Shown: one piece after another, positions 2,741 through 43,970 of the stretch | Position numbering within the stretch: the first letter of the stretch is position 1 | Layout of the letters: every line of letters starts with the position of its first letter | Source: Squalus acanthias | Lineage: Eukaryota | Direction: 5' to 3' | Assembly (NCBI GenBank): GCA_030390025.1 | Contig: CM059432.1 | Coordinates: forward strand, 79,548,001-79,612,000 | DNA length: 64,000 nucleotides | Notes under the pieces: model-generated | Told to the model about the DNA's origin: nothing | What the model saw: only the letters and a program-made list of their open reading frames with translations | The model's database searches: none | Translations under genes and position numbers: made by a program

Positions 2741-4324
2741 GCAGTAGCCAGTCTTCAGCCAATTCGATTCACTCCACCTGATATCAAGAAACAGCTGAGC
2801 GCACTGGATACAGCAAAGGCTGTGGGCCCCGACAATATCCCGGTTGTCGTGCTGAAGACTTGTGCTCCAGAACTAGCCACGCCTCTAGCCAAGCTGTTCC
2901 AGTACAGCTATAGCACTGGCATCTATCGACAATGTGGAAAACTGCCCAGATATATCCTGTCCACAAAATGCAGGACAAATCCAATCCGGTCAATTACCGC
3001 CCCATCAGTCTACTCTCAATCATCAACAAAGTGATGGAAGGTGTCGCCGACAGTGCTATCAAGCAGCACTTACTCACCAATAACCTGCTCACTCATGTCC
3101 AGTTTGGGTTCCACCAGGACCACTCGGCTCCAGACCTCATTACAGCCTTGGTCCAAACATGGACAAAAGAGCTGAATTCCAGAGGTGAGTTGAGAGTGAC
3201 TGCCCTTGACATCAAGGCAGCATTTGACCGAGTGTGGCATCAAGGAGCCCTAGTAAAACAGAAGTCAATGGGAATCGGGGGGAAAACTTTCCACTGTTTG
3301 GAGTCATACCTTGCACAAAGGAAGATGGTTGTGGTGGTTGGAGGTCAATCATCACAACCCCAGGACATCGCTGCAGTAGTTCCTCAAGGCAGTGTCCTAA
3401 GCCCAACCATCTCCAGCTACTTCATCAATGACCTTCCCTCCATCAAAAGGTCAGAAATGGGGATGTTCGTTGATGACTGCTGTGTTCAGTGCCATTTGCA
3501 TCTCCTCAGATAATGAATCAGTCCATGCCCGCATGCAGCAAGACCTGGACGGCATTCAGGCTTGGGCTGATAAGTGGCAGGTAACATTCACGCCACAGAA
3601 GTGCCAGGCAATGACTATCTCCAACAAGCGAGCATCTAACCACCGCCCCTTGACATTCAACGGCATTACCATCGCGAATCCCCCACCAACAATATCCTGG
3701 GGGTCACCATTGACCAGAAACTTAACTGGACCAGCCACACCCAGCACGGACTCTATGGGCCGAATGGCCTCCTTCTGTGCCGTTATGACTCTATGGGCTC
3801 GAATTTCATCGGGCCGTTGAGGCGGGATTGGAGGCGTGTGGGTGGTTAAAATTGCAAAAACTGGCGGGCGGGCCCAACCCCGCCTCCATCCCGCCTCCAA
3901 GCAATTTTCATTAAATCGTGTCTACTGGTCCCGTCTCCGTCCCGCCTCCAAGAGGCGGGATAGGCCGTTAAGGCCCTTAACAAGCACTAAATTGCCTCTA
4001 TAATGCCATTTTGATAGGCCTTTGTGATTTTAACCCTTTTCTCACGTGAAGCACACCTGTTCTGAAACACGACGGTGAAACCTGGCGGTAGCACAATTGG
4101 ATTGCTGACTATCAGCTGCAGCTCAACCATTAAATAGGAGATTTGATCAGCCATCATTTGCAGGTGGCAGGACTTTTCTGTCTCAGGTCTGGGGGAACTT
4201 TTAGATGGCATAACCACAGCTGTGGAAGTTTGGAGCCTGACACCCATCTCCAGTGTGACCTCCTGGGAAACACCTCTCGCCATCTTGACTGAGCGCTTCC
4301 TCAACTGAGGCATATACCAGAAGC

Positions 4325-5179
4325 ATGGGAACCATTTATTTTCTTCCCTTCTGGACATCAGATGAGGACGAAGACCAGCCGCGGCACCAGCAGAACCATG
4401 AACAACAGCAGCACCAACAGCAACAGCAGCAGCAACAACAGGAGCGCCAAGTTGATGCTCACCCACACGAAGCTGCACAGGCCAGAAGGGGCCAGCGCAT
4501 GGAAGCCCGTTGGCGCAGGAGATACCCCCCAAACAGGGTCTACAGATACAGGGTCAGCTACCTCAATATGTCTGAGCAGCAGTGCCAAAGGTGGCTCCGA
4601 CTTCCACGAGAGGTAGTGGGTGAGATCTGCGCAATGCTGCAACAAGACCTGGAGCCCAGAGGACCAGGTGGACAACCCTTACCAGTGGCCGTCAAAGTCA
4701 CCACCACACTCAACTTTTTTGCCTCAGGCTCATTCCAGGGATCAGCAGCAGACATCAGCGGCATCTCCCAGGCGGCCACACACACTTGCATCATGCAGGT
4801 AACCGATACCCTCTTTGCCATCGCGCACAATCACATCCATTTCACCAAGGATCAAGCAAGTGTCACGGCGCGTGCGGTTGGGTTAGCTAATCTGGCAGGC
4901 TTTCCAAGGGTGCAGGGCGTCGTTGATTGCACACATGTGGCCCTTAAGGCACCCATCGCCACCCAGGTATTTTTGTCAACCGCAAAGGCTTCCACTCCCT
5001 TAACATTCAGCTGGTGTGTGACCACAAGAAGGAAATTTTGCATGTTTGTGCCAAGTACCCTGGCAGTTGCCATGACTCCTTCATACTGCGCCAGTCTAGT
5101 GTGCCTCCGCTCTTCAGTCCACCAGACCAACTTAACGGATGGCTACTTGGAGACGTGGCTAATGACACCGTTGACATAA
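4325..5179 (+). pseudogene. Harbinger (HARBI1-like) DDE transposase, frameshifted and C-terminally deleted
   Basis: LNFFASGSFQ, GFPRVQGVVDCTHV, then [16 protein letters not shown] and GWLLGD in another frame. KGYP and the EQTIG region are missing. N-terminal poly-Q. Confidence 0.9.
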
Positions 5180-5202
5180 AACATCAGAATTCACCCAAGT
5201 GA

Positions 5203-7180
5203 CTACTTGTGCACTATCTTTCTCTTACGCATGCTCCTACGTGGTGCTTCCCCTGTGGCTTCAGCAGATGTGGAGGCCCCTTGCTCACTTTCTTGCTGCT
5301 CCTGTCTTGACACCTTTGGCGGGCGTCCTCTGGGGTTGCGAACCTGTGAGGGCTCACCAACAGTCTGCTGCTCCTGCGGCTGTGCAGGGGTTGAGACGCC
5401 GATCTCAGTTGGGTGCGGACTCTGGTGGGGCTTTGACCGTGGACTTGTCAGTGGCATGGAAGTGTGAGCGCTTGGAGAGGAGCCCCCACTTCCTTGTTCT
5501 CTGCAAACAACATCCCTCTCATGGGTCAGGTCCACCTCAGCGCTTGCAAGTGGATTGAGAGCACCTTGCTGCACATCAGGGGGGCCATGGGGACCCGTAT
5601 CTGCACTGGAAGTCCTACTCAGAAGGACTTCCATGAAGGTCTGGTTTCTGTGTTCAATAGATGACCATCGCTCCTCCAGAGATGTCATCCTATTCTGAAC
5701 ACTCACCATGTTTTCTGCACTCTGGCGACTTATCTCCTCCATGGCCACAGCCATCCTCTCGTCTACTGTAGCCATCCTTTCGACGGAGGTTGCCATCATT
5801 TGCACAGAGGTTGCCATCCTTTCCGTGGTGATGCGTTCATGCGCCAATGACTCCACAAAGGCTCTGCTCATGTTCGCAATGGACTCCTCCATTCGCTCCA
5901 CACTCGCAGCGACCCTGGAGACAAAACCTGCCAGAGACTCCTGCATCTGTTCCTGGAGTTCCAGCACCGCTGATCTTATGGATGGACCCAGAGGCAGAGG
6001 GTCAACATGCAGCTGAGCCGAGCTGGGAGAGTCCTGCGCCCTCCGACTAGGACTCTCCACTGCTGTCCCTGTCTCCACTATCTGCTGATGCTCACTTGTG
6101 AGCTGTGATACACCAGGTGACAACACTACTCTATCTCGCGATGTTCCCTCCGAGGTGTGAGTGTCTGCGCTGGGGCTGGGTGAGCTGAATTCTGCTGACG
6201 CTGTGCCCTCAGAGGTTGCAGCTTCCTCTGAGGAGTCTTGAGGCTCATGCTCTTCCTCCTGGATAGTGGGGATGGGTGCTTACGATGGTCCTGGGGGGGA
6301 GTAAAGGAAAGAGTCAGAGATGTGAGGACAAGGTTACATGCACATTGCATATTGCAGATATGTCCATCTGTTAGAGCTTCAGAATCATTATCAGCGACTC
6401 ATGCAATGTCATTGAGAGAGATGGAAAACTATTCTGTCACCAGCTTGCTGTGATGCGCCCGTCTGTCCGTCCCCCACTTGGGAATCTTCCTCCACTCCCA
6501 CCATCTCCAGGACCGCCTCCTCCCAGGTGGTGAGCTGGGCTACTGAGGGTGGCTCTCCTCCTGTCCTCGCTCTTTCCCTCTTATTGTGAGCTCCCTTTTC
6601 CTGCAATGAGGGAGACAAGTGGAGTTTGAGTGAGAATGAAGGAGCGCGTGTAGAGAATCCATAGCATAGATGCTTAGAAGGAGACAAAGATGGAGTGAGG
6701 TGGCAAGACCAAGGGCCCTCCCTGTGTGTTGTAAGTTGTAATTGCATCACAGTGATAGGGAGTGTGAGGGCTGCATAGTCGAATAGTTAGGTGAATGTGA
6801 CCATAGAGAGAGAGGGAATGGGTAAGGGTGCATGGATGTCAGTGTCAAGTGGGATGTGGAGGAAGAGATTGCTAAAGCTGAGTGCTGGTGAGGAGAGGCA
6901 ATGGGGATCAGATTGAGGGTGATGGGAAATTCATACTAATTTTTCCAGTGCGCAGAAGGTCATGAAGCCTCTTCCTGCACTGAAGCCAGGTTCTGCGGGT
7001 TATTGACAAAGAGTTGACCTCCTCTGCCACCTGGATCCACACAGCCTTGGTTTGCTGGGGAGGCTTCTTCCTCCCTGAAGAAGGGAAGAGCACCTCTTTG
7101 TTTGCTCTTGCTCCCTCTACTAAAGCCTGCAGGGCAACGTCATCAAAGCGGGGTGCAGACCTAGGTCTCTGGCTGGCCAT
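5203..7180 (-). pseudogene. Harbinger Myb/SANT (trihelix) protein gene, 3 exons (about 7180-6941, 6600-6441, 6290-5203)
   Basis: Exon 1 APRFDDVALQALVE..VLFP..W..VAEEVN..RTWLQCRKRLHDL. AG acceptors at 6602-6601 and 6292-6291, GT donor at 6440-6439, and phases join into ORF 5203..6126. First donor degenerate; in-frame TAA at 6282-6280. Confidence 0.8.
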
Positions 7181-8324
7181 TCTTCCTGCAGGTGCCTCTA
7201 ACATGCAAGGGCAAAAGCTTGGCAGTCTGCAGAAGAAACAAGGCTTGTTGCAGACCTTAAATGCAGCAGCAATGATGACGTCATCGGAGGCGACTTTCAG
7301 ACTGGAAAAACTCACTGGCCATGGGTTCCCACACGTTGGAACTCAATTGGCCAATTAGGTTAAAATGGCATCATTCTCCCACATCAATTTAGAATCGGGT
7401 GGCGAACACGAAATGTGGATTACACGACCCCAGCCCGCCCCAGTATCAAAATCCAGCCCTATGACTCTATGACATAAATACTGTGGCAACAAGAGCAGGT
7501 CAGAGGCTGGGTATTCTGTGGCGAGTGTCTTACCTCCTGACTCCCCAAAGCCTTTTCACCATCTACAAGGCACAAGTCAGGAGTGTGATAGAATAGTCTC
7601 CACTTGCCTGGATGAGTGCAGCTCCAACAATACTCAAGAAGCTCGACACCATCCAGGACAAAGCAGCCCGCTTGTTTGCCACCCCATCCACCACCATAAA
7701 CATTTACTCCCTCCACCACCGGCGTACCGTGGCTGCAGTGTGTACCATCTACAAGATGCACTGCAGCAACTCGCCAAGGCTTCTTCGACAGCACCTCCCA
7801 AACCCGCGACCTCTTCCACTTAGAAGGACAAGGGCAGCAGGCGCATGGGAACACCACCACCTCCAAGTTCCCCCCCCAAGTCACACACCATCCTGTCTTG
7901 GAAGTATATCGTCGTTCCTTCATTGTCGCTGGGTCAAAATCCTGGAACTCCCTCCCTAACAGCACTGTGGGAGTACCTTCACCACAAGGACTGCAGCGGT
8001 TCAAGAAGGCGGCTCACCACCACCTTCTCAAGGGCAACTAGGGATGGGCAATAAATGCTGGCCTTGCCAGCGATGCCTACATCCCATGAATGAATTTTTA
8101 AAAAAACGCCCACCGCTGCAGGTGGCACTATGATAGGGCATCTCAAGGTCAAAATATAACAATAAATAATTTCAAAATACTGTACTTACAAAACTGAGCC
8201 AAAAAGCAACTCCCTTTCACTATGGCCAGTATTTACATCAACCCAGAGAAGATCGGGTCTGGAGAACAGATGGTTTTCCCCTCCTCAAAATAGAGAGCAG
8301 AATTGGGCCACAGAGAACAGAAGT

Positions 8325-8660
8325 TTTTTTTTTATTTGTTTATGGGATCTGGGCGTCGCTGGCAAGGCCAGCATTTATTGCCCATCCCTAATTGCCCTTG
8401 AGAAGGTGGTGGTGAGCCGCCTTCTTGAACCGCTGCAGTCCATGTGGTGAAGGTACTCCCACAGTGCTGTTAGGGAGAGAGTTCCAGGATTTTGACCCAG
8501 TGACGATGAAGGATCGGCAATATACTTCTAAGTCAGAATGGTGTATGACTTGGAGGGGAACTTGGAGGTGGTGGTGTTCCCATGCGTCTGCTGCCCTTGT
8601 CCTTCTAGGTGGAAGAGGTCGCGGGTTTGGGAGGTGCTGCCGAAGAAGCCTTGGCGAGTC
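8325..8660 (-). mobile_element. LINE family B 3' end fragment
   Basis: Reverse translation ..KSWNSLPNSTVGVPSPHGLQRFKKAAHHHLLKGN* followed by the family tail. Confidence 0.85.
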
Positions 8661-9029
8661 TGCCCCCCCAGAAACCACCACCCACCAACTGAGGGCAAAA
8701 TCAGTTCTTGTAAGCCAGAAGTCCAATCCCCAGACCCCTCCACCCACTGAGATGAGAATCAGGACACTATGCTGCCCCTGCCTCCACTGAGGAAAGAAGG
8801 GGAGTTCAGTAGACCCCATCCCCGATTAAATGAATTTTCGCCACCACCCCACCCCCCAGGAAAGACAAAGCTTACCCTATGGCCCCCCTGCCCCCACGTG
8901 AGGTGATATCCGGACCATCTCCACCGAATAGGTTTGCCAACCTCCTATCCCCAATTAGGTAGTTTCCCAGCCTTTGCTTCCCCCCACCCCCATTTCCCCT
9001 CTCTTGCTGCTACCCCGTCCCCTTCTCTT

Positions 9030-9120
9030 TTTTTTATTCGTTTATGGGATGTGAGCGTCGCTGGCAAGGCCAGCATTTATTGCCCATCCCTAATTGCCCT
9101 TGAGAAGAGGGTGGTGAAGG
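9030..9120 (-). mobile_element. LINE family B extreme 3' end fragment
   Basis: gtcgctggcaaggccagcatttattgcccatccctaattgcccttgagaag, same as 8355-8405. Confidence 0.8.
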
Positions 9121-10422: not shown

Positions 10423-10522
10423 TCAGTACAGAGCGGCAATGGCAATAAGTACCAACATCTTGTTCCCAATAATTTATGCCTCTCTGTAGCACTATCAGAC
10501 ATCTTTCTACATTAAAGCTATA

Positions 10523-18284: not shown

Positions 18285-19029
18285 GGGCCAAAAATTCATC
18301 CCGCGACGCGAGAGTACGCACTGCGTACTCTCGCGTATTCCCACTCCAATTGCTGGTTTTCTGCATGCCCTGCGCATGCGCTGAAAACCGGCAATTGGTC
18401 TTTTGAAAAGGGGGCGGTTCCTCAGTGCATCGCGTGTGCGCTACAGGCTGTGCGCACGCTGTGCACTTCATGCTTTGGACGCGCAGGTAAGTACAGAAGA
18501 TTTTAGAAATGGAAAAAGGAGGAGTAAGACCCACTTTTAACAAGGTAAGTAGTGAATTAAGTATTTTTTTGAATTTTTTTTAACAGGTATATCTTTTTTA
18601 GAGACTTTAAAGACAGGTAAGTTTATTTTTATAACTTTTTAAAAAGATTTTAAATTTTTTCAAAAATTTAATTTTTTATTTAAAATGGTTAATTTATTTA
18701 ACTATACTTATTTTATTAATGTGATGGGTTTTTTTTTTTATTTAATTGAGGTTTAGCTGTTATTTTGGGGGGGTGTAAGATTCATAGATTTCACAGCACG
18801 TATGTGAAACTTATGAATGGAAGATGGTGTGCTGCCATTGGCTCTAACTGAGTCACGTGATCCCACAGCTCGCACGAATTCACTACGCCGGTGGGATACG
18901 CAAGCACTGCCCAGCTGATGTCTGGAACATCAAGTTCGTGCGAGCTGGATCTGAAAAAGCACAAGCGGAGTGAGAGATCGCGGGGAAGCCTTATCCCCGC
19001 GGGAACAGAGCGAGATCAATTTCTGGGCC
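18285..19029. mobile_element. Harbinger-type MITE
   Basis: TIRs GGGCCAAAAATTCATC / GATCAATTTCTGGGCC, same GC-AT-GC architecture as 10523-11256. Confidence 0.7.
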
Positions 19030-21559: not shown

Positions 21560-22728
21560 ATGGGCGCTGTACTGGCGGTCGGCTTCGCCCTCCAGGATCT
21601 ACAGCGGAGTGAGCGAGAAAGACTGGAACATGTAGCCAGAGGGAGGAGGAGGGCCATCAGGGCTCTCAACAGGCGGCCTTACCCTCCGAGGGTATTCCGA
21701 GAGCGCTTCTCCTACCGCCAATTAAGCGAGGAGCAGTGTATTAGAAAGCTCTGCTTCATCAAGGAGGTGGTCACAGAACTCTGACACCTCCTGCACCCAG
21801 ACCTCAGATCAGGGCGACCACGGCTCTCTCAAAAGCAGTCAAGGTCACTGTCGGTCACAATTTCTTCGCCAGCAGATCCTTCCAGTCTGCAACAGGAGAC
21901 ATAGATAACATCTTGCAGTTTGCCGTCCGTTACTGCATCCAGGAAGTCACAGTGACCCTCTACAGTAGGAGAAGGTACTACATTTCCTTCCCCATCACCA
22001 GAGAGAAGCAGGACGAGCGTGCATGTGGCTTTGCTAGAATAACAGGCTTTCCCATGGTGCAGGGCGCCATTGACTGCACACACGTGGCTTTGCAGGCACC
22101 GCATAACAATCCTAAGATCTTCCGTAACCACAATGGCTACCACTCACTTAATGTGCAGTTGGTGTGCGACCACAGACAGCGAATCCTCAATGTCAATGCC
22201 CGCTATCCTGGCAGCAGCCACGATGCCTTCATCCTGCGCCAAACCGGTGTGCCAGCACTCTTCCAGCCATCCAATCAAGCTCGCGGCTGGCTGGTTAGAG
22301 ACAAGGGCTATCCGCTGTCCACCTGGCTCATGACTCCCCTCCACAACCCCAACACTCCTGCCCAGCACTCATATAATGAGAGCCATACTGCCACCAGGAA
22401 CATCATCGAGCAGACCATCGGGGTGCTCAAGCAACGGTTCCGCTGCCTTGACCGCTCGGGAGGAGCCCTCCAGTACTCGACTGAGCGGGTGTCCCATTTC
22501 GTGGTGGTCTACTGCATGCTCCACAACTTGGCCAGCCCTTGCCACCAGGGATTGCGGGACCACCTCAGGAGTAGGAAGAGTGAGAGGAGGAGGAGGAGGA
22601 GGAGGAGGAGGAAGAGGAAGATGAGGAGGAGACGAGGACGAGGAACAGGAGCGAGGGAGGAGGCAGCCACTCAATCGGCCTTCCGGAAGGGCGGTCCGTG
22701 ACGCCTCATCAGACTGCGGTTCGAATGA
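21560..22728 (+). pseudogene. Harbinger transposase, near full length with stops and frameshifts
   Basis: [78 protein letters not shown], acidic (GAG)n tail. Confidence 0.92.
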
Positions 22729-22893: not shown

Positions 22894-25684
22894 CTATTCA
22901 CCCTTAGTGCCTCTCGTTACTGTGCCTTTGCCTACTCTAGTGCTCCTACGAAGTGTTGGCCCAGTGGCTGCAGCAGGGCTGGTGAAAGGCTGCTGAGTGT
23001 CCGTGCAGGAGACTTCAGATGGCCTTGCAGGATGCCCTCGACCTGCTCTGGGCCTGGAAGACCTGGCTGTGGACTGCACCACCTCAGCATGGGCAGCAGC
23101 AGTCTGGGCTGGCTGGATGACAGGCAGCGACAAAGGCAATGGCGGAGTGCCAGTGGTGGGAGCAGGAATGTTGTCATCCTGAGAGAGGACAGCAAGTTCC
23201 TGCTCCACTGACCCACTGCCACTCCCCCGGAACAGCACCTCAGCATCCCCAGCAATCTGTTGGAGCACAGATTGCTTGTCTGCTGCAACACCGTGAAAGC
23301 CCCGGTTGGCAGTGGTAGACCCAGCCACGCTGGCAGCAGTCAGAGCTTGCAGGGCATCAAGCTGAAACTGTATGAGAGCAATCTGAGATTGGATGCCACC
23401 AAGCATAGACTGCATTACAGCACTAAGACGTTGCGTCACATCCGCCTGTGCTGCAATGGAAGCTGCCAGATCGGCCATCATACGCGGCATCAGGTCTGGG
23501 TCGCCACGGTCTACCATCCTTTGCAGACTGGAAATGATGAGCTCCATGGTGTGCGCAGACCCTTGTGGTCTCCTCCATGCTCCTTATCATTGCTGAGAGG
23601 CTCTCGGGCACCCTTGCCATTGCACCTATCATCTCCATGCGCATGCCCATCACCCTTCTTCTAAACACCTCCCCATCAAGGCCCTCATCAGAGTCCTGTG
23701 CAGCAAAACTCACGCGCGAACTTGCCCTTCGGGGAGCTGGCCCCGGAGCTACTCTTTCCCCCTGGCCTTGCTGCAGCCCACTCGTCCCCGGTGCCTTACC
23801 CTATGCGGATCCCGCTACTATACTAGCCTCTAAAGAATGTGTAGTGCCAATATCTGAGCTGGTGCCTGCGGGTGAGACATGCAGTGACGCGGTGTGTTCT
23901 TCCTCCTCCACTTCTCACGCCTCGCTCTCTACGGTGCCCTCAGGGAGAGGCTGCTCAGGTGCTTGCTCATTATCTGAAAGCAGAAAGGCACAAGAGTCGG
24001 GTTATGGTGAGGGCAGGGGGCAGGGAAGCCAGAAATGCATGCATACAGCATGAGTAGCTTGTAAGTGAGAAAAGATTGTGTACTGAGGGGGAAGTGGGAT
24101 GTGAGAAGAAGGATTAAGGAATGAACATACCATTGTTGTCCCCAAGGGGGTCAACATCGCCGGTGACCACGGTGCCGACGATCTGGCACCCAATGATCTC
24201 CAGCACTTGACTCTCCAGCTGGCTCAGCTCTTCAATGCCCGCCTGTCCACTCCTGCTTCCGGCGATTGTAAGCGATCTTAGCCTGCAAGAGCAAGGGAAG
24301 TGTGCCAGTGAGTATGGTGCAATGTGTTTGGGTGATGTGCCTGCCACAGTTGAATAGCTGTCATTGTGTGCAAGGTGCGAGTGTTGATCAGTAGAGATTG
24401 TTGGTGGGAGAGAACAGAAGAAATAGGAGCAGGAGTAGGCCATTTGGCCCCTCGAGCCTGCTCCGCCATTCAATAAGATCATGGCTGATCTTATACCTCA
24501 ACTCCACTTTCCTGCACTATCTCCATATTCCTTAATTCCCTTAATATCCAAAAATCTATCGATCTCTGTCTTGAATATACTCAACGACTGAGCCTCCACA
24601 GCCCTCTGAGGTAGAGAATTCCAAAGATTCACCACCCTCTGAGTGAAGAAATTTCTCCTCATCTCAGTCCTAAATGGCCGACCCCTTATTCTAAGACTGT
24701 GACCCCCTGGTTCTAGACTCCCCAGCCAGGGGAAACATCCTCACTGCATCTACCCTGTCAAGCCCTGTAAGAATTTTGTATGTTTCAATGAGATCACCTC
24801 TCATTCTTCTTACCTCTAGAGAATATAGGCCTAGTCTACTCAATCTCTCCTCATAGGACAATCCCCCCCATCCCAGGAACTAGTCTGGTGAACCTTCGTT
24901 GCACTCCCTCTATGGCAAGTATATCCTTCATTACGTAAGGAGACCAAAACTGTACACAATACTCCAGGGGTGGTCTCACCAGGGCCCTATATAATTGCAG
25001 AAAGACATTTTTACTCTTATACTCAAATTCTCTTGTAATAAAGGCAACATACCATTTGCTTTCTTAATTGCTTGCTGTACCTGCATGTTACTCTGCTTTT
25101 CTATTTTTCCTACCAAAATGGATAACTTCACATTTCTCCACATTCCATTCCATTTGCCATGTTCTTGCCCACTCACTTAGCCTGTCTATATCCCCTTGAA
25201 ACCTCTTTGCATCCTCCTCACAATTTACATTCCCACCTAGCTTTGTATCATCAGCAAACTTGGATATATTACATTTGGTCCCCTCATCCAAATCATTGAT
25301 ATAGATTGTGAATAGCTGAGGCCCAAGCTATTGAGAGTGCTGGGGGTGTGATGCACTGAGCAGTGTGTGAAGCTTGTGGTACAGATGGTGGTATCTGGCA
25401 AATTGCTAAAGCCTTCACTCACCCTGACCACCCGTGTGAGGTCGTTAAAATTTTTTCCTGCACTGGGTGTGGGTCCTGGAGTCCACAGTGCTGCCCTGGG
25501 GACCCCAGTGCTGCCCGTGACGTGATCCGCTATCTCCCTCCAGATAGTGCGGCAAACTTGTGGCGGGGGCCTCCTGCCAGTTGACGGGTATAGGACCGCC
25601 CGCCTCCTCTGCACCACGAACCAAAACCTGAAGAGCTTCATCGGAGAACCTACGGACTCTCTCCCTCTGTCTCCGTTCTGCCAT
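22894..25684 (-). pseudogene. Harbinger Myb/SANT gene, 3 exons, frameshifted, with CR1 in intron 1
   Basis: MAERRQRERVRRFSDEALQVLV..LYP..W.EIA.HV..RTHTQCRKKFNDLTRVVR|gtgagt; exon 2 about 24283-24131; exon 3 to LRRSTRVGK. Confidence 0.8.
24411..25328 (-). mobile_element. HER1-like CR1 3' fragment with internal deletions
   Basis: [29 protein letters not shown]; tail ggcctactcctgctcctatttc on the minus strand. Confidence 0.88.
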
Positions 25685-26440
25685 GGTTGCTACGGATGTC
25701 TTCTGACTGTTGTTTGCTTTGTTGTTGGGGCAGCTGGGGACCCAATAAGAATGACAATGAGGTGCTGCAGCATCAATGAACCTCCCTTTTAAGTAGTGGG
25801 AAAAGCCTGTGGCAATCATGACTTGCAATTAGACTGCCCCCGATATTGGTCCAGCTTTTCAGTATAATGCCAATGAGCTTGAGTTTTTAGACTAGAATCA
25901 TGACTACAAACATTTTAATGAGGAGTTAGCACGAATTTTGCGTAAATCCTTTTTAAAAAATCAATATTTAGGTGGGGCAGCTTGACCTTTTTTAGTCTAA
26001 ACACTGCCCATTTCTTAGCTATAACAAATTTCTAGCCCTTTGGACCACCACTGTTTTTAGCTGTTCACCATTTAGAAAGTACTCTGATCTATCCTTTTTA
26101 GGTCTTGCCTGTATTAAAATCCATTTGCCACAGTTTTTCCCTTTCACTTAATCTATTAATTTCTCTTTGTAATTTTATGCTTCCATCTACACTGCTTACA
26201 ATGCCGCCTATCTTTGCATCATTGGCAAACTTGGATATGTGGCTCTCTATCCCATCATCTAAGTCGTTAGTAAATACAGTGAATAGTTGAGGCCCCAACA
26301 CAGATCCCTGTGGGACGCCACTAGTCACATCCTGTCAATTGGAGTACCTGCCCATTATTCCTACTCTGTGTCTCCTGCCGCTCAGCCAATTCCCTAACCA
26401 GGTCAATAATTTGCCCTCAATTCCATGAGCTTCAACTTTA

Positions 26441-26890
26441 AAGAAAAGAAAAAGACTTGCATTTATAAAGCGCCTTTGACGAACACTGGATGTCCCAAAG
26501 CACTTTACAGCCAACTAAGTACTTTTTGAAGTGTAGTCACTGTTGTAATGTCGGAAACACGGCAGCCAATTAGCACACAGCAAACTCCCACAAACAGCAA
26601 TGTGATAATGACCAGATAATCTGTTTTTAGTGATGTTGATTGAGGGATAAATATTGGCTAGGACACCTGTGATAATTCCCCTGCTCTTCTTCGAAATAGT
26701 GCCATGGGATCTTTTACGTCCACCTGAGAGTGTAGACGGGACCTTGTTTAACGTCTCATTCGAAAGACGGCACCTCCGACAGTGCAGCACTGGAGTGTCA
26801 GCCTAAATTTTTGTGCTCAAGTCTCTGGAATGGGACTTGAACCCACAATCTTCTGACTCAGAGGTGAGAGTACTACCAACTGAGCCACTG
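26441..26890 (-). mobile_element. Full-length DeuSINE (SacSINE1-like)
   Basis: A box TGGCTCAGTTGG, B box GGTTCAAGTCC, Deu-domain-like gaggtgccgtctttcgaatgagacgttaaac..aaagatcccatggcact, L2-type tail. Confidence 0.88.
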
Positions 26891-27261
26891 GCTGACACAC
26901 TCAGAATGATTAGCTAACATTCTCTTATGAGGACTTTATCAAATGCCTTCTGGAAGTCCATATAAACATTCCCCTGTCCACTACTTTAGTCACCTCTTCA
27001 AAAAATTCAATCAGGTTCATCAGGCATGACTTACCCTTTGACAAATTCATGCTGGCTCACTCTGATAAGTTGAAAATTTTTAAGCTGTTCAATCACTCTG
27101 CCCTTAATTATAGACTCTAGTAATTTCCCGACAACAGATATTAGGATAACTGGTCTATAATCCCCTGCTTTCCCTCTGTTACCTTTCTTAAATAGCAGAG
27201 TAAGATATGCAATTTTCCAATCTGAAGGAACGGTCCCTGAATCAAGAGAACTTTCAAAGAT

Positions 27262-30044
27262 TTTTTTAATTAATTCACTGGATGTGGGTGTCGCTGGCAA
27301 GGCCAGCATTTATTACCCATCCCTAATTGCCCTTGAGAAGGTGGTGGTGAGCCGCCTTCTTGAACTGCTGCAGTCGGTGTGGTGAAGGTGCTCTCACAGT
27401 GCTGTTAGGGAGGGAGTTCCAGGATTTTGACCTGACGATGATGAAGGAACGGCAATATACTTCCAAGTCAGGATGGTGTGTGACTTGAAGGGGAACGTGT
27501 TCCCATGCACATGCTGCCCTTTTCCTTCTAGGTGGTAGAGATCACGGGTTTGGGAGGTGCTGTCGAAGAAGTCTTGCCGAGTTGCTGCAGTGCATCTTGT
27601 AGATGGTACACACTGCAGCCCCAGTGCGCCGGTGGTGGAGGGAGTGAATGTTTAAGATGGTGGATGGGATGCCAATCACGCGGGCTGCTTTGTCTTGGAT
27701 GGCGTCGAGCTTCTTGAGTGTTGTTGGAGCTGTACTCATCCAGGCAAGTGGAGAGTATTCCATCACACTCCTGACTTGTGCCTTGTAGATGGTGGAAAGG
27801 CTTTGGGGAGTCAGGAGGTGAGACACTCACAGCAGTATACCCAGCCTCTGACCTGTTCTTGTAGCCATAGTATTTATGTGGCTGGTCCAGTTAAGTTTCT
27901 GGTCAATGGTGACCCCCAGGATGTTAATAGTGAGGGATTCAGCGATGGTAATGCTGTTGAATGTCAAGGGAGGTGGTTGGACTCTCTTTTGTTGGAGATA
28001 GTCATTGCCTGGCACTTGAGTGATGCGAATGTTACTTGCCACGTATCTTCCCAAACCGGAATGTTGTCCAGGTCTTGCTACATACGGGCATTATCTGAGC
28101 AGTTGTAAATGCAACTGAACACTGTGCAATCATCAGCGAACATCCCCTCTTATGACCTTATGATGGAGGGAAGCAGCTAAAGATGGTCGCGCCTAGGACA
28201 CTGCCCTGAGGAACTCCTGCAGCAATGTCCTGGGGCTGAGATGATTGGCCTCCAACAACCACAACCATCTTCCTTTGTGCTACGTATGACTCCAGCCAGT
28301 GGAGAGTTTTCCCCGATTCCCATTGACTTCAATTTTACTAGGGCTCTTTGATGCCACACTCGTTCAAATGCTGCCTTGATGTCAAGGACAGTCACTCTCA
28401 TCTCACCTCTGGAATTCAGTTCTTTTGTCCATGTTTGGACCAAGGCTGTAATGAGGTCGGGGGCTGAGTGGTCTTGGCGGAACCCAAACTAAGCATCAGT
28501 GAGCAGGTTATTGGTGAGTAAGTGCCGCTTGATAGCACTGTCGACAACACGTTCCATCACTTTGCTGATGATTGAGAATAAACTGATGGGGTGCTAATTG
28601 GTCGGATTGGATTTGTCCTGCTTTTTGTGGACAGGACATACCTGGGCAGTTTTACACATTGTCGGGTAGATTCCAATGTTGTAGCTGTACTGGAACAGCT
28701 TGGCTAGAGGCACAGCTAGTTCTGGAGCACAAGTCTTCAGCACGACAACCAGGATGTTGTCAGGGCCCATAGACCTTGCTGTATCCAATGCGCTCAGCCG
28801 TTTCTTGATATCACGTGGAGTGAATCGAATTTGCTGAAGACTGGCTTCTGTGATGCTGGGGACCTCAGGAGGAGGCCGAGATGGATCATCCACTCTGCAC
28901 TTCTGAAGATGGTTGCAAACACTTCAGCCTTGTCTTTTTCACTCACGTGCTGGGCTCCGCCATCATTGACGATGGGATGTTCATGGAGCCTCCTCCTCCC
29001 CCCATTAGTTGTCCACCACCATTCACGACTGGATGTGGCAGGACTGCAGAGCTTTGATCTGATCTGTTGGTTGTGGGATCGCTTAGCTCTGTCCATGCAT
29101 GTAGTCCTGTGTTGCAGCTTCCCCAGGTTGGCACTTCATTTTTAGGTATGCCAGGTGCTGATCCTGGCATGCTCTTCTACACACCTCATTGAACCAGGTA
29201 ATAGTAGAGTGAGGGATATGCCAGGCCATGAGGTGACAGATTGTGGTGGAATACAATTCTGCTGCTGATGTCCACTTTTGAGCTGCTAGATCTGTTCTGA
29301 ATCTATCCCATCTATCCCAGTGCCACACAACACAATGGAGGGTGTCCTGAGTGGGAAGACAGAACTTCGTCTGGATACCACTGTGCGGTGGTCACTGCTA
29401 TGGTCATAGCGCATCTGCGACAGGTAGATTTGTGAGGACGAGGTCAAGTAGGTTTTTCCCCTTGTGTTGGTTCTCACCACCTGCCGCAGGCCCAGTCTGG
29501 CAGCTATGTCCTTCAGGACTTGGCCAGCTTGATCAGTAGTGGTGCTTGAACATTGAAGTCCCTCACCCAGAGTGCATTCTGTGCCCTTGCTACCCTCAGT
29601 GCTTTTTCCAAGTGGTGCTCAGCATGGAGGAGTACTGATTCATCAGCTGAGGGAGGGTGGTAGGTGGTAATCAGCAGGAAGTTTCCTTGCCCATGCTTAA
29701 CCTGAAGCCATGAGACTTCATGGGGTCCAGAGTCAATGTTGAGTATTCCCGACTGTATACCACCACCTCTGGTATACCTCAGGGATGGTGATGGAAGAGT
29801 CTGGGACATTGGGTCTAGAGAAACATATAGGCCAGACCAGGTAAGGACAGCAGATTTCCTTCTCTAAAGGGCATTAGTGAACCAGATGTAGTTTCATGCT
29901 AGCTTTTTATTACAGATTTATTTAATTAACTAAATTTAAATTTCCTGGCTGCCAGTGGTGGGGTTTGAACTCACGTGTCCGGATCAGTAGTCCAGGCCTC
30001 TGGATTACTATGTCCAGTAACATAACTACTATGCTACCGTACCC
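27262..30044 (-). mobile_element. LINE family B, both ends present, internal deletions, tRNA-like 5' head
   Basis: Host CR1 resumes at 30045. Head GGGTACGGTAGCATAGTAG..GAGTTCAAACCCC, followed by endonuclease/RT fragments and the family tail. Confidence 0.85.
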
Positions 30045-32970: not shown

Positions 32971-33144
<174 letters not shown>

Positions 33145-36623: not shown

Positions 36624-37097
36624 ACCTTCCTCAAGATAAGCATTGGGAAAACCAAGGCTGCCATCATGACCTCTGCCACAAACTCGGTTCCCTTGCCACT
36701 GATTCCATCCCTTTCCTTGGCAACAGTCTCAGGCTGAACCAGAATGTTTGCAACCTCGGAGTCCTGTTTGACCCCAAGGTGTATTTTCAACCCTATATCC
36801 TCTCCATTGTAAAGACCACCAACTTCCACCTCCGTAACAGTACCCAACTCTGCCTCTATTTCAGCCTATCTGGCATTGGAACTCTCTCTCATGCCTTTTG
36901 GCACCTCCAGGCTCAATTACTCCAATGTTCTGTTGGCTGGCCTCCATCCTCCACAAACTCCAGCCCATCCAAAACTTTGCTCTCCGTATTCTATCCTTTA
37001 CCAAGTACTGAGCACTCATCATCCCTGTCCTCTCTGACCTACATTGGCTCCCAGTTTCTCAACACCTCAAATTTAAAATTCTTTCTTTCTATTTAAA

Positions 37098-37410
37098 GAA
37101 AGAACTTGCATTTATATGGAGCCTTTCATGACCTCAGGATGGCCCAAAGCACTTTACAGCCAATGAAATACTTTTTGTAGTCATTGTTGCAATGTAGGAA
37201 ATGTGGCAGCCAATTAGTGCACAGCAAAGTCCTACAAACAGCAATGAGATAATGACCAGATAATCTGTTTTAGTGATTTCGGTTGAGGGATAAATATTGG
37301 CCAGGACACTAGGGAGAACTCCTCTGCTCTTCTTCAAATAGTGCCATGGGATCTTTGTGTCCACCTGAGACGGCAGTTAGGACCTCCGTTTAATGTCTCA
37401 TCAAAAATCA
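37098..37410 (-). mobile_element. DeuSINE fragment
   Basis: Homologous to 26450-26765. Confidence 0.8.
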
Positions 37411-37761
37411 CTCCATTGCCTTGTTCTTCATTGTCACTGTAACCTCCTCCAGATAGAGTCCCGCGACATAGGTTCATGAACATGAACCGTTCTGTCCGAA
37501 GTTCAGTTCCAAATCTCATCGTAGAGAGGTGCCAACCACTTGTCCATTGGGAAAAGGAATAGGAATTGAGAATGATCCCTTGGTGCTTTCATGCAACTCT
37601 TAGAAACTTGGGTACAATTGTTGATTAGAAAGGGGAAAAGAGGACGAAAATAACTTGAAAAGGGCAGGTTATATAGGAATTTACTTTTTAGAATCATTTT
37701 AAGTGCAGTAGCACTCACTCACACTGGAGTGACCTTGGCTCAATTCCTGCCTCTGAGTCAG

Positions 37762-37940
37762 AAAAAAGTCTTGCATTTATATAGCGCCTTTCACGACCAC
37801 CGAACGTCTCAAAGTGCTTTACAGCCAATGAAGTACTTTTTGGATTGTAGTCACTGTTGTAATATGGAAAATGCGGCAGCCAAGTTGCGCACAGCAAGCT
37901 CCCACAAACAGCAATATGATAATGTCCAGATAATCTGTTA
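37762..37940 (-). mobile_element. DeuSINE 3' fragment
   Basis: cttgcatttatatagcgcctttcacgacc..cagataatctgtt. Confidence 0.8.
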
Positions 37941-38144
37941 ATAGGTTGGAGCCCCGCTCCAGGCCGTCGCCCCACCCACACATTGCACCCCTTCCACCGG
38001 GCTAACGGGATATTTTTTTACAGAAACGACCCAGGTCACGATCTGCTGGATGTAAAAGCAATGGAACAAATGGGGAGCCTCAGAAGAGAAGTGCTCAGAC
38101 CATCCGGTCAAGGCCATTTTTCAGGCATCACATAAAATAACATA

Positions 38145-38245
38145 AATTCTGACGAAGGGTCATCGACCTGAACCGTTAACTCTGTTTCTCTCTCCACAGA
38201 TGCTGCCTGACCTGCTGAGTATTTCCAGCAGTTTCTGTTTTTATT
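38145..38245 (+). mobile_element. Penelope-like terminal fragment (family P2) with mutated hammerhead
   Basis: ctgacgaagggtcatcgacctgaaccgttaac (GAAA changed to GAAC) followed by cacagatgctgcctgacctgctgag. Confidence 0.7.
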
Positions 38246-38299
38246 ACATAAAATCACTATTACGTTTGTCGCCCCAGTTAATCTGGAGAGGAAAAATGG

Positions 38300-38930
38300 G
38301 GCAGACGAGATCAGGAAGGAGATGGTGTCGACATACACCGCTGCCGGTGCGAAGCTGCTTGAGGCGCTTTCACAGAGTTTGCCTGAAGTCGGCTTAAGTT
38401 CCCGCACACTTTGCACGAATGTGAAGCCGAAACCGGATCGCATTCACTCAAACCACGGCGCATAACCGGCCGGCAGTGTTCACCAGCTGAACTAAGACCG
38501 GGAACCCAAGGTGTGTTGCCGAGCCTCCAGGAGCCCAGCCACTTCCGCCGGGCCCGGCAGCTGGCGATGAACCAACTCCGTGAAACAGCCCAACAACTCT
38601 CCAGGGAAAGGACTCACCACTGACACTGACTTTCACAAAAGATGAAATGATAATAAGTGAGGCCTCCTCTTTGCTAATAACGCCGCCCGCCGCCTTTGCT
38701 TACCAGGGCCCGGCTGCTGCTGGTGAACCGGCCGCACGCCCTGAAGCTGCAAGCGGCCGTTTCGAACGCTGAGCGGTTTGAAAGCTCGCGGCCGACGCTG
38801 CTGCGGTTGCTATGGGAGACGGGTGCCGCCATTGTGTTGCCCGGTATAGCGCCAGACCCTGAGGAAAGAAGACTTCGCTCTTTCCGTTCCGTGCTTTAAC
38901 TGAACTTGCGTTAGAGCGGCAAACAGACCA
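38300..38930 (-). promoter_or_regulatory. CpG-rich putative PPP1R42 promoter and non-coding first exon
   Basis: Non-repetitive CpG-dense island about 5.5 kb upstream of the ATG exon; minus-strand donors CTG|GTAAGC (38704/38703) and GTG|GTGAGT (38618/38617). Confidence 0.65.
38806..38820. promoter_or_regulatory. RFX X-box
   Basis: GTTGCT-ATG-GGAGAC (reverse GTCTCC-CAT-AGCAAC) fits the X-box pattern. Confidence 0.65.
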
Positions 38931-39104
38931 GAAAGAGAATAAAAGGACCAGTTAGGAGGAATTTTCAATACTACCAGGGCAAGGCATCATTTTAGGAATG
39001 AGATCTATGATAATCACAAATAAATAAATTTCAACAACCTCAGCAACCCTTCCCATTCTGCTTACCCCACTCACCACTGATCGAGGACTCTACAGTGAAT
39101 CAAT

Positions 39105-39320
39105 AACAACAATAAATGCATTTATATATATAGCACCCTTAACATAGAAAAACGTCCCAATGCGAATCACAGAAGGTAATCAGACAATAATCGATGACAA
39201 GCCAAGGAAGGAGATATTAGGAGGGATAACTAAAATATTGCTCAAAGGGATGGGTTTTAAGGAGGGCCTTAAAGGAGGAGAGCGAGCTGCAGAAATAGAG
39301 GTGTTTGGGAAATTAATTCA
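39105..39320 (-). mobile_element. L2 3' end fragment
   Basis: aacaacaataaatgcatttata..aaggagatattagga..ggttttaaggaggg, as at 44540-44720 and 62905-63110. Confidence 0.7.
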
Positions 39321-39797
39321 AAACCATTTATTCCTATGTTGTGAATAATGATAATAAGTTACATTTTTAAACCAAGGAGTTAGTTTCAGTTGTAAAGTCG
39401 CTTTGAGTCTTCACTTTTTGGCACTTTGTATCTTAACTATCATCTGATGTAAAAGTAATCATTATTAACATTGTTAAAGTTTACAACTTTTCATAGCATC
39501 TAAGCATGCATAAAATGCCATCCCTGCATTGTCTCAATTCTCTCTTCAGGTTTGGACTTGGCATTCCAAATTGGAGAAATTTGACAAGTCATGCTGCTGA
39601 ATAAGATTAATAAATCTGTAGACAAGAGAACGAATGACAAACACGCTTGGCAAAGAAATGGATTATCACGAAACAATCAAATATTTGTACTACAGAATAT
39701 CACAGAGAAAGTTATGAACAAGGTGCCACCTTCAGAATTACATCAACAATTTTGAAAAAGGCCTCTAATAATCTGGATAGATTTACAATCTGGCAAT

Positions 39798-42700
39798 TTT
39801 TTAATGCATTTATGGAATGTGGGCATCGCTGGCAAGGCCAGCATTTATTGCCCATCCCTAATTGTCCTTGAGAAGCTGGTGGTGAGCCGCCTTCTTGAAC
39901 CACTGCAGTCCATGTGGTGAAGGTACTCCCACAGTGCTGTTAGGGAGGAAGTTCCAGGAATTATACTGAGCGACGACGAAGAAACGGCAATATATTTCCA
40001 AGTCAGGATGATACGTGATTTGGAGGGGAACTTGGAGGTGATCGTGTTCCCATGCACCTGCTGCCCTTGTCCTTCTAGGTGGTAGAGGTCGCGGGTTGGG
40101 GAGGTGCCGTCAAAGAAGCCTTGGCGAGTTGCTACAATGCATCTTGTAGATGCACGGTGCGCCGGTGGTGGAGGATATGAATGTTTAAGGTGGTGGATGG
40201 GGTGCCAATCAAGCGGGCTGCTTTGTCCTGGGTGGTGTCGAGCTTCTTGAGTGTTGTTGGAGCTGCACTCATCCAGACTAGTGGACAGCATTCCAAAACA
40301 CACCTGACTTGTGCCTTGCCCGCAGAATACCCAGCCTCTGACCTGCTCTTGTAGCTACAGTATTTATATGGCTGGTCCAGTTACATTTTTGGTCAATGGT
40401 GACCCCCATGATGGGGGATTCGGCGATGGTAATCCCATTGAATATCAAGAGGAGGTGGTTAGTCTCTCTCTTGTTAGAGATAGTCACTGCCTGGCACTTG
40501 TGTGGCACGAATATTACTTGCCACTTATCAGCCCAAGACTGAATGTTGTCCAGGTCTTGCTGCATGCGGGCAGGACTGCTTCATTGTCGGAGGAGTTGCG
40601 AAAAGAACTGAACACTGTGCAATCATCAGCGAACATCCCCACTTCTGACCCTATGATGGAGGGAAGGTCATTGATGAAGCAGCTGAAGATGGTTGGCCGA
40701 GGACACTACCCTGAGGAACTCCTGCAGCGATGTCCTGGGGCTGAGATGATTGAGTTCCAACAAACACAACCATCTGCCTTCGTGCTACGTATGACTCCAG
40801 CCAGTGGAGAGTTTTCCCCCGATTCCCATTGACTTCAGTTTTACTAGGGCTCCTTAATGCCACACTCTGTCAAATGCTGCCTTGATGTCAAGGGCAGTCA
40901 CTCTCACCTCACCTCTGGAATTCAGCTCTTTTGTCCATATTTGGACTAAGGCTGTAATGAGGTCTGGAGCCGAGTGGTCCTGGCAGAACTCAAATTGAGC
41001 ATTGGTGAGCAGGTTATTGGTGAGTAAGTGCCGCTTGATAACACTGTTGATGACACCTTCCATCACTTTGCTGATGATTGAGAGTAGACTGATGGGGTAT
41101 TAATTGGCCGGATTGGATTTATCCTGCTTTTTGTGGACAGGATACACCTGAGCAATTTTCCATATTGTTGGGTAGATGCCAGTGTTGTAGCTGTACTGGA
41201 ACAGCTTGGCTAGAGGTGCGGCTAGTTCTGGAGGACACATCTTCAGCATGACAGCCAGCATGTTGCCGGGGCCCATAGCCTTTGCTGTATTCAGTGTGCT
41301 CAGCCGTTTCTTGATATCACATGGAGTGAATCGAATTGGCTGAAGACTGGCTTCTGTGCTGGTGGGGACCTCAGGAGGAGGCCAATATGGATCATCCACT
41401 CTGCACTTCCGGCTGAAGATGGTTGCAAACGCTTCAGCCTTGTGTTTTGCGCTCACGTGCTGGGCTCCACCATCATTGAGGATGGAGATGTCCATGGAGC
41501 CTTCTCCTCCCATTAGTTGTTTAATTGTCCACCACCATTCATGACTGGATGTGTCAGGACTGCAGAGCATTGATCTGATCCGTTGGTTGTGGGATCGCTT
41601 AGCTCTGTATATAGCATGGGGTTTGTGCTGTTTAGCATGTATGTAGTCCTGTGTTGTAGCTTCACCAGGTTGGCACTTAATTTTTAGGTATGGCTGGTGC
41701 TGCTCCTGGCATGCTCTTCTACACTCCTCATTGAACCAGGGTTGGTCACCTGGCTTGATGGTAATGGTAGAGTGAGGGATATGCCGGGCCATGAGGTTAC
41801 AGATTGTGGTGGAATACAATTCTGCTGCTGCTGATGGCCCGCAGCGCCTCATGGATGCCCACTTTTGAGCTGCTAGATCTGTTCTGATCTATCCTATTTA
41901 GCACGGTGGTAGTGCCACATAACTCAATGGAGAGTATCCTCAGTGTGAAGACAGGACTTCGTCTCCACAAGGACTGTGTGGTGGTCACTGCTACCAATAC
42001 TGTCATGGACAGATGCATCTGCGACAGGTAGATTGGCAAGAACGAAGTCAAGTAGGTTTTTCCCTCATGTTGGTTCTCTCACCACATGCCGCAGGCCCAG
42101 TCTGGCAACTATGTCCTTCAGGAGTCAGCCAGCTTGCTCAGTAGTGGTGCTACCGAGCCACTCTTGGTGATGGACATTGAAGTCCCCCACCCAGAGTACA
42201 TTCTTGCTACCTCAGTGCTTCTTCCAAGTGGTGTTCAACATGGAGGAGTACTGATTCATCAGCTGAGGAAGGACAGTAGGTGATAATCAGCAGGAGGTTT
42301 CCTTGCCCATGTTTGATTTCATGGGGTCCAGAGTCAATGTTGAGGACTCCCAGGGCCACTCTCTCCCAACTGTACACCACTGTGCCGCTGCCTCTGGTGG
42401 GTCTGTCCTGCCGGTGGGACAGGACATACCCAGGGATGGTGATGGAGGAGTTTGAGACGTTGGCTAAAATGTATGATTCTGTGAGTATGACTGTTAGGCT
42501 GTTGCTTGACTAGTCTGTGGGACAGCTCTCCCAATTTTGGCACAAGTCCCCAGATGTTAGCGAGGAGGACTTTGCAGGGTCGAATGGGCTGGGTTTGCCT
42601 TTGTCATGTCCGGTGCCTAGGTCGATGCCCGGTGGTCCGTCCAGTTTTATTCTTAGTATGCTTCTTTGTAGCGGTTTGGTAGAACTGAGTGGCTTGCTAG

Positions 42701-43970
42701 GCCATTTCAGAAGGCAGTTTCGAATCAATCACATTGCTGTTGGTCTAGAGTCACATATAGGCCAGATGGACGGCAGATCCACTGGCACATGCTAAACTTC
42801 AGGGACAATGTGTTAATCCAGTAATCCAGGGAATACGAGTTCAAATCCCACCATGGAAGATTGAGAACTTGAATTCAATTACGGGGATAGAGTGGGGGAA
42901 TGGGACTGACTGGATTGCTGTACAGAGAGCCAGCACGGACTCGATGGGCCAAATGGCCTCCTTCTGTGCCGTTATGACTCTATGGGGGGAAAATTCAGTT
43001 GGTTGCGCCTCCCGTTAGCGCCTTAAGAGGGCACTAATGGGGCGCAAAGCATCTAGCGCCCAGGCGCGGCGAAGTTTGCGCCGCTCGCGAAATTAACTAG
43101 ACATTTTGCGGCGGCGCTAAACACTACCACCACGATCTCCTGCGCCGGCAGATCGTGACGTCACTCGAGTGCGCAACGCCCCGGTATCGCCCCGGAGCGG
43201 ATATTGAGTGGTGCCCCCTGCCTTACCACCTGACGCTAGCAACGACAGGTTGAGGGGAGCGTTCTGCAGTCATGAAGGGAAAGGGGGAGCGCTATTTAAA
43301 GGTGACCGCTTCCTGCCTTTTATTGTTGGTGCCATTTTTGAACTACGTATTCTGAGAGAGAGAGAGACTTCTGGAGAGATTCAACGTTGTGTGAAGGAGT
43401 TTTGGGTACTGAACAGCACTTTGCAGGTTCATTTTGATTTGCCATTCCTTGTATCGATTTAGAAGAGATTGTGGGGGCTGCACTCTGAGCTCTTTGCCTG
43501 GTACTCTCCATTGTTCTTTCCAGCAGATTTGATGTGCAGGTCTCTCCAGGCCGAGATTCAAGGCTGCAATGAGCAGGATGTGGATGGAAAGCAAGATTAA
43601 CCATCCCCTTTAAGAACTGGCCCGTGCCATTGTGTGTGTGTTCCATTGCTGACTGACATTACATGAGCTTTGCCAGCGCTCTGAGGTAGTGCCTCGCTCA
43701 TCGGCCTTTGCGCCTTAAGACAGGTGTGAAGCGCCTGATTTAGCGCTCCAATCACCTCCAGGGGCGATAAAAGTCAAGTTTGCAGTCGGTGGCGATAATT
43801 AGCGCCAGGCGCTAATCTTTGCGCCCGGCCGATAATTGCGCCCCAAATGGGGCGAAACTGAATTTCTCCCCCTATGACTCTATTTCCTTCCCTGAAGGAC
43901 ATTAGTGAACCAGATGGTTATGACAATCTGGTAGTTTCATGGTCACCATTACTGGTACTAGCTTTATACT
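39798..43970 (-). mobile_element. LINE family B, near full length; 5' UTR split by an insertion at about 42780-43883
   Basis: Endonuclease start (PKLGELSHRLVKQQP), [26 protein letters not shown] and family tail; gacggcagat resumes as ttccttccctgaaggacattagtgaacc. Confidence 0.88.
42984..43872 (+). mobile_element. Non-autonomous Harbinger (internal deletion derivative of the element C family)
   Basis: 17-bp TIRs GGGGGGAAAATTCAGTT / AACTGAATTTCTCCCCC, TSD TAT; arms align to 58153-58665 and about 61895-62279. Confidence 0.9.

What the first reader, a model, noticed from the sequence alone, without database searches (positions are those of the whole stretch)
3740..43883. Two different Harbinger families inserted at the same nucleotide of a CR1 3'-tail repeat
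Seen: element A (3795-7459, GGGCTCGAATTT termini) and the non-autonomous element 42984-43872 (GGGGGGAAAATTCAG termini, different subterminal repeats) both follow ...ccttctgtgccgttatgactcTAT. Both are followed by TATgactctat. The two host tails match at 52 of 54 nt, and each is a short CR1 3' end sitting inside a family B LINE. The site of element C (AGTC-ATG-GA) resembles the reverse complement of this target (AGTC-ATA-GA). Known: Harbingers make 3-bp TSDs, typically TWA-like, with extended target preference. Inference: these Harbingers preferentially hit the (TATGACTC)n tail of an abundant LINE, a DNA transposon using retrotransposon tails as a self-renewing landing pad. Only two events are visible here.
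Basis: partly seen in the sequence, partly recalled or inferred. Interest (0 to 1): 0.75.

Follow-up and report, generated by a model that had tools for sequence, protein, structure and literature searches.

The report
Harbinger transposons fill CR1 LINE tails
Cut-and-paste Harbinger transposons of many families fill about three quarters of the sampled complete landing sites in the short repeated tail of one young LINE retrotransposon in this genome, likely because that tail happens to spell the target sequence they prefer everywhere, not because they seek out LINEs.

Summary
Observation confirmed, and it holds genome-wide. A and B sit at the same TAT of a (GACTCTAT)n CR1-type tail (52/54 nt) and are independent insertions. 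Of the first 100 such tails, 41 are followed directly by a Harbinger end. Filling depends on the downstream half-site: 0 of 37 with ≤3 matching bases, 21 of 28 with ≥6. 17 of 91 family-B copies lie in tails; 74 lie elsewhere, at a palindromic target resembling zebrafish Harbinger3_DR's. One-base tail variants are hit far less (AACTC 16/100, GATTC 1/100), and an internal site of the same LINE only 2/100. Best reading: sequence match to a known extended target preference, resupplied by CR1 copying; multi-unit tails collect stacks of two or three elements. The tail is hit about 15-40 times more than an additive matrix predicts; half-site word counts roughly close that gap. Adaptation to the tail is not excluded. 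No report in print was found (7 searches). The scan has noted this about ten times already, in this genome and another one.

The parts
3741..3794 (+). 5'-truncated CR1-type 3' end, left part of tail, ending in the TAT target duplication (3792-3794)
3795..7459 (+). Harbinger element A, GGGCT(C/G)GA(A/T)TTT termini, internally deleted
4301..5199 (+). A transposase remnant, frameshifted and cut short; DDE_Tnp_4 at 4948-5199 (E 1.5e-11)
6911..7249 (-). A Myb/SANT-like ORF exon (Myb_DNA-bind_5, E 3.5e-9)
7460..7473 (+). second TAT copy and rest of tail (GACTCTATGAC)
2742..8106 (+). host LINE ('family B') interrupted at 3739/7472 by the CR1 end plus element A
42768..42878 (+). about 110 nt of non-CR1 sequence joined 5' of the CR1 end, with a B-box-like word (label recalled)
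42879..42983 (+). 5'-truncated CR1-type 3' end with left part of tail and TAT
42984..43872 (+). non-autonomous Harbinger element B (family length about 893 bp; 11,257 exact left-end 25-mers in G000)
43873..43883 (+). second TAT copy and rest of tail (GACTCTAT)
58153..62279 (+). element C, autonomous-type relative of B (DDE_Tnp_4, Myb), TSD ATG, not in a tail; nested in TIR element 57778-62666

Best explanation
Many Harbinger families in this genome insert at the same TAT of the GACTCTAT tail of young CR1-type LINEs, likely because their transposases read an extended, roughly 15-19 bp palindromic target and this 8-bp repeat happens to place two strongly preferred half-sites (GACTC and its near mirror GACTCT) around a TAT. 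Shown: the consensus of non-tail sites is T-W-A-R-A-N-W-C | WWW | G-W-N-T-Y-T-W-A; a tail is filled only if it runs on at least four bases past the second TAT; single-base tail variants are filled much less; tails with more units take two or three elements 11 bp apart. Inferred: the transposase (with its Myb partner) reads the target directly; CR1 retrotransposition keeps supplying fresh sites, which become nearly saturated over successive Harbinger waves; each insertion uses its site up.
For: 41/100 tails filled, 26 clusters among 40 fillers by terminal sequence, left and right ends counted apart. Filled/empty by matching bases right of TAT: ≤3 0/37; 4-5 7/14; ≥6 21/7 (Fisher p 2e-11). Matrix from 61 non-tail B sites ranks the tail site in the top 3e-5 of background and first in the last 1.5 kb of the LINE. 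It matches the flanks of Harbinger3_DR's AAACAC-CWG-GTCTTT (PMC3016246, passage). The matrix's second-best LINE site is a real but weaker hot spot (63 B-type junctions; 2/100 filled), about 2,000-fold over average against about 1,000 predicted. Outside tails, half-sites GACTC (5/122, 49x) and AGA[CG]TC (6/122, 81x) are enriched; AACTC and GATTC are 0/122; the same order as tail filling: AACTC unit 16/100, next GACTC unit in the same copies 9 filled against about 3 empty exact sites (counted by eye), GATTC 1/100. Stacks: 323 junction matches, about 85 of the first 100 with ends on both sides; triples in L261 and L219; second sites lack CR1 sequence on the left, so 8 bp suffice.
Against: The additive matrix predicts about 1,700-2,000-fold for the tail; observed is about 25,000-45,000-fold before correcting for competition (denominators estimated). 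Matrix difference tail minus internal site is 1.2 bits (bootstrap -1.5 to 4.4) against 3.1-4.5 bits observed, at the upper edge. The half-site word counts that close the gap rest on 5-6 events, and the zero counts are not significant alone (upper limits 32-41x). The tail has T/A at the ±3 positions where non-tail sites and Harbinger3_DR prefer A/T. Filling is lower in the first 30 rows (6/30) than in the next 70 (35/70; p 0.007), so region matters too. All samples come from one contig (C1).
Confidence: 0.8

Rival explanations
1. Adapted targeting: these Harbinger lineages sharpened their target preference on the tail of the co-active CR1 family (a safe, renewed landing pad), and hits on source CR1 copies in turn favour shorter or altered tails.
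For: 15-40-fold excess over the additive matrix; the tail departs from the Harbinger3_DR consensus at ±3; the preferred tails belong to young families (about 95% best-pair identity) while GATTC tails are older (86%); LINE and B are of similar age (2.8-3.7% and 2.9% non-CpG divergence); short-tailed empty copies are younger than filled ones (2.8 vs 3.7%, p 0.024).
Against: 74 of 91 B copies are outside tails; the framework of the target is shared with a zebrafish element; both major TIR groups (GGGGG and GGGCT) share the preference, which points to an old trait; another young tail type (GTTTC, 97% identity) scores low and holds about 1 of 91 B copies; no subfamily-diagnostic site separates filled from empty hosts.
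Confidence: 0.13
2. Insertion is coupled to retrotransposition: Harbinger transpososomes capture the nicked or flexible 3' junction of a CR1 copy as it integrates, or its open chromatin.
For: Same nucleotide near the LINE's 3' junction; similar ages; regional variation in filling.
Against: Stacks of two or three different elements in one tail; strict dependence on tail sequence and length; the site 160 bp upstream in the same copies is filled only 2/100; filled hosts are older than empty ones, as expected from exposure time (p 0.01).
Confidence: 0.04
3. Artefact: one ancestral CR1+Harbinger composite was copied, or an 11-bp duplication mimics a tail.
For: TATGACTCTAT stands on both sides at both window sites.
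Against: Different families, both orientations in similar numbers, hosts truncated at many lengths, right flanks of every length from 4 to 12 matching bases, and 3-bp duplications at non-tail sites (61 of 76 perfect).
Confidence: 0.01

Closest known systems
Harbinger3_DR / Harbinger3N_DR of zebrafish (Sinzelle et al. 2008; seen only as passages in PMC3016246, and PMC2836001)
   Same: Transposase plus Myb-like ORF, 3-bp duplication, extended palindromic target of about 15 bp with flanks A-R-A-N-W-C and G-W-N-T-Y-T.
   Different: Duplication here is mostly W-rich (TAT, TAA, ATA, CAT, AAA, TTG, TTA; CAG 3 of 61), not CWG; the best-used site is supplied by a LINE tail and is nearly saturated.
PIF/mPIF of maize and mPing of rice (PMC2836001, passages)
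   Same: Target preference extending beyond the 3-bp duplication.
   Different: 9 bp in plants; here information reaches ±9 from the centre.
P-element tandem dimers in Drosophila (PMC5932611, abstract and section 10)
   Same: Target preference makes elements pile up at the best-matching sites.
   Different: There one site is reused with an 8-bp duplication between copies; here different families occupy successive units of another element's tail, 11 bp apart.
Dada and Pokey, DNA transposons of multicopy RNA genes (PMC3706591, passages)
   Same: DNA transposons concentrated at one position of a multicopy sequence; Pokey also inserts elsewhere, as here.
   Different: Target is a retrotransposon tail, not a host RNA gene; specificity is not strict (about 19% of B copies).

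Membership tests
PIF/Harbinger (broad) | DDE_Tnp_4 transposase | tested here: met
   element A E 1.5e-11; element C (relative of B) E 4.5e-22
PIF/Harbinger (broad) | second ORF with Myb/SANT domain | tested here: met
   A E 3.5e-9, C E 3.1e-7, opposite strand
PIF/Harbinger (broad) | short TIRs and 3-bp target duplication | tested here: met
   61 of 76 B copies with both ends found have a perfect 3-bp duplication
PIF/Harbinger (broad) | extended palindromic target preference | tested here: met
   8 bits over about 19 bp from 61 non-tail sites (symmetrised)
PIF/Harbinger group of Han et al. 2015 (PMC4482050) | TWA duplication | tested here: not met
   TAA+TTA 11 of 61 non-tail sites
NuwaI group (PMC4482050, passages) | TIRs starting GGG, two ORFs | tested here: met
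NuwaI group (PMC4482050) | CWG duplication | tested here: not met
   CAG 3 of 61, CTG 0
NuwaI group (PMC4482050) | placement in the Nuwa clade by transposase tree | not tested
   no reference transposases fetched
Strictly target-specific transposons (Dada type) | nearly all copies at one position of one multicopy target | tested here: not met
   17 of 91 B copies in tails; 2 of 29 other A right ends clearly in tails, one more possible
CR1 LINE (host) | reverse transcriptase, 5' truncation, 8-bp tandem tail | tested here: met
   RVT_1 E 1e-23 in L157; shared 3' stretch 54 to >1,500 nt; tail
CR1 LINE (host) | CR1 clade by phylogeny | not tested
   the label CR1 rests on recalled ORF2 and tail features

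The most novel reading that the evidence does not exclude
A transposon-on-transposon arms race: Harbinger transposases have tuned their target to the replication-critical 3' repeat of the co-active CR1 family, fill about 80% of complete tails, disable hit source copies, and so push CR1 toward shorter or altered tails (AACTC first unit, GATTC, GTTTC).
Probability: 0.13. Interest if true: 0.78.

Novelty: new variant of a known kind. Interest (0 to 1): 0.46.

Why it matters
Even as a coincidence it is an unusually strong, measurable interaction between two transposon classes: a fifth of one family's insertions go into another element's tail and complete tails are nearly saturated. Thousands of tails that differ by single bases or in length form a natural titration of vertebrate Harbinger target specificity, relevant to sequence-specific integration tools and to annotating and dating repeats. 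In the eel LINE UnaL2 the 3' repeat is needed for retrotransposition (PMC1636434, passages); if that holds for these CR1s, Harbingers could cap LINE activity, which makes TE-TE antagonism directly testable.

Tried and rejected
De novo TIR-pair finder on 400 kb of background found only 4 elements: too strict for occupancy estimates, dropped. A fixed 11-bp duplication: rejected, right flanks vary in length. A copied composite: rejected. Host B as a tRNA-type SINE: not supported, only the last ~105 nt match the LINE family and the ~110 nt upstream had no listed match among the top hits. Subfamily difference between filled and empty hosts: none. First age comparison used a consensus biased to empty copies and unmatched regions; redone region-matched. 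The 200 half-sites were used only for copy-number estimates and to find stacks, not for the matrix. Rows dropped: 12 of 40 filled tails without a resolved right end; 1 of 59 empties (L289, fetched on the wrong side); 15 of 91 B copies without a right end; L027-L029 as tandem duplicates and L004 as self. Literature: 7 searches showed no report of Harbingers in CR1 tails; the library lacks most subscription papers and Repbase notes, and no supplements were read.

Full report
Observation. Element A (3795-7459) and element B (42984-43872) both follow ...CCTTCTGTGCCGTTATGACTC-TAT and are followed by TAT-GACTCTAT. The 54 nt upstream agree at 52 positions and similarity stops at about 55 nt, so these are two insertions into two copies of one LINE end. 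A carries a broken DDE_Tnp_4 transposase and an opposite-strand Myb/SANT ORF; element C (58153-62279), which shares B's ends (75-88% identity), carries both as well. C is not in a tail: its ATG duplication lies inside another TIR element. The host is a 5'-truncated LINE family with a reverse transcriptase; the name CR1 and the impression of a cartilaginous-fish genome are recalled, not tested. The window is G000:C8:79548001-79612000.

From the transposon side. B's left 25-mer has 11,257 exact matches. I examined the first 91 junctions on contig C1. 17 lie in LINE tails or in tail units next to another Harbinger: 15 by rule, L053 by BLAST, L043 by eye. Both orientations and several tail types occur. 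Tail-type sites numbered at most 31 in 400 kb of background, against about 11,800 TAT/ATA triplets. For family A, 2 of 29 other right ends are clearly in tails and one possibly. So the enrichment is large, but 74 of 91 B copies are elsewhere.

From the LINE side. The tail 19-mer has 5,008 matches (with one distal base constrained); in 41 of the first 100 rows the next bases are a Harbinger-type end, judged by eye. I fetched 40 of the 41 (the other was L099) and found the far end in 28; all 28 resume the tail. The fillers fall into 26 clusters by terminal sequence, left and right ends counted apart, and include both short and 4-kb elements. Allowing one substitution, filled versus empty by bases matching right of TAT is 0/37 for ≤3, 7/14 for 4-5 and 21/7 for ≥6 (58 of 59 empties examined). 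That is 75% for complete sites, about 80% if the unresolved ones are shared out. Right flanks of all lengths exclude an 11-bp duplication.

The target. 61 non-tail B sites with perfect duplications (49 from C1, 12) give, symmetrised, T-W-A-R-A-N-W-C | WWW | G-W-N-T-Y-T-W-A, 8 bits. The flanks match AAACAC-CWG-GTCTTT of zebrafish Harbinger3_DR (PMC3016246, passage); extended preferences of 9 bp in plants and 15 bp in vertebrates are stated in PMC2836001 (passages). The tail site scores 11 bits, the top 3e-5 of background and the best site in the last 1.5 kb of the LINE.

Controls. The second-best site of the same LINE, 160 bp upstream (10.5 bits; 9.9 without its own example), is filled in 2 of 100 and 3 tail-anchored loci. 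Genome-wide B-type junctions: 417 at the tail of 5,000-6,500 sites, 63 at the internal site of about 8,400. With about 25,000-30,000 B-type ends (estimated) the internal site is about 2,000-fold over average, near the prediction; complete tails are about 25,000-45,000-fold, 15-40 times above it once competition is allowed for. GATTCTAT tails (43,592 matches) are filled in 1 of 100 rows, with about 10 complete empty sites among them. A second family begins its tail with AACTC: 16 of 100 filled at that unit, while the next unit (GACTC on the left) has 9 filled against about 3 empty exact sites (by eye). So a LINE end as such is not the target; the exact sequence is.

The excess. The additive matrix is noisy (tail minus internal 1.2 bits, bootstrap -1.5 to 4.4; observed 3.1-4.5). 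Half-site words outside tails are not additive: GACTC 5/122 (49x, CI 16-111), AGA[CG]TC 6/122 (81x, CI 30-172), AACTC and GATTC 0/122. With TAT/ATA at 11 of 61 the product is about 24,000-fold, the right size, but on few events. I take passive sequence match as most likely (0.8) and leave the excess as the open point.

Stacks and renewal. Two Harbinger ends separated by TATGACTCTAT match 323 times, an undercount because the pattern excludes some ends; about 85 of the first 100 have ends on both sides. L261 and L219 hold three elements in one tail. This parallels P-element dimers at best-matching sites (PMC5932611, abstract and section 10).

Age. Region-matched filled hosts diverge 3.7% (n=30), empty 2.8% (n=29, p 0.01), short-tailed empty 2.8% (n=19, p 0.024); B 2.9%. 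Older hosts being filled fits exposure time. That short-tailed copies are younger too is not predicted by the passive model and is the one hint of LINE escape; it is weak and no subfamily marker backs it. Filling also differs by region (6/30 vs 35/70).

Known and new. The elements work like Harbinger3_DR and belong to PIF/Harbinger broadly, but fit neither the TWA nor the CWG group of PMC4482050 (passages). They are not strictly target-specific like Dada (PMC3706591, passages). PMC9179366 (passages) found no Harbingers in elephant shark and no regional preference in medaka; PMC13343379 (passages) does not mention Harbingers; PMC8437027 (passages) does not mention CR1. Seven searches found no report of this hot spot. 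The scan's own notes record the same phenomenon about ten times, here and in another genome; they are not independent support. Verdict: real, strong, most likely a coincidence of two known habits; interest 0.46.

Noticed in passing
window 21086-~25500: A fourth Harbinger (DDE_Tnp_4 E 1.4e-35 at 21745-22698), left junction TAC|GGGGG, with a LINE fragment inserted; right end not found.
   Followed up: partly
window 57778-62666, 18286-19028, 19123-~20800: Further non-coding TIR elements with Harbinger-like ends; the first (TSD ATA) contains element C, the last appears to contain a CR1-type copy.
   Followed up: partly
L031, L096, L069, L072; L035, L071, L105, L107; L025, L091; L100, L118: Recurrent Harbinger hot spots inside LINE bodies (GACTC-TTT-ATGTC, GACAC-AAA-GTATT/GCCTT, GACCC-TTG-GTTCC, AGAA-CAG-GAGTC), hit by both A and B families in some cases.
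   Followed up: partly
G000:C9:140.42-140.44 Mb (L026-L029): Four identical B copies inside a tandemly repeated unit.
   Followed up: no
rows: AACTC-unit fillers are nearly all GGGG-type ends (15 of 16), whereas GACTC tails take many GGGCT-type ends: families differ in fine preference.
   Followed up: no
L096: A 325-bp B derivative with a LINE-body hot spot on the left and a tail on the right, probably a deletion between two elements.
   Followed up: no
window 42768-42878: About 110 nt of other sequence fused 5' of the CR1 end and inserted with it, a possible template-switch chimera.
   Followed up: partly
L152, L154: Two CR1 copies inserted at the same position of another LINE (same sequence after the tail), suggesting CR1 has its own microhomology-driven hot spots.
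   Followed up: no
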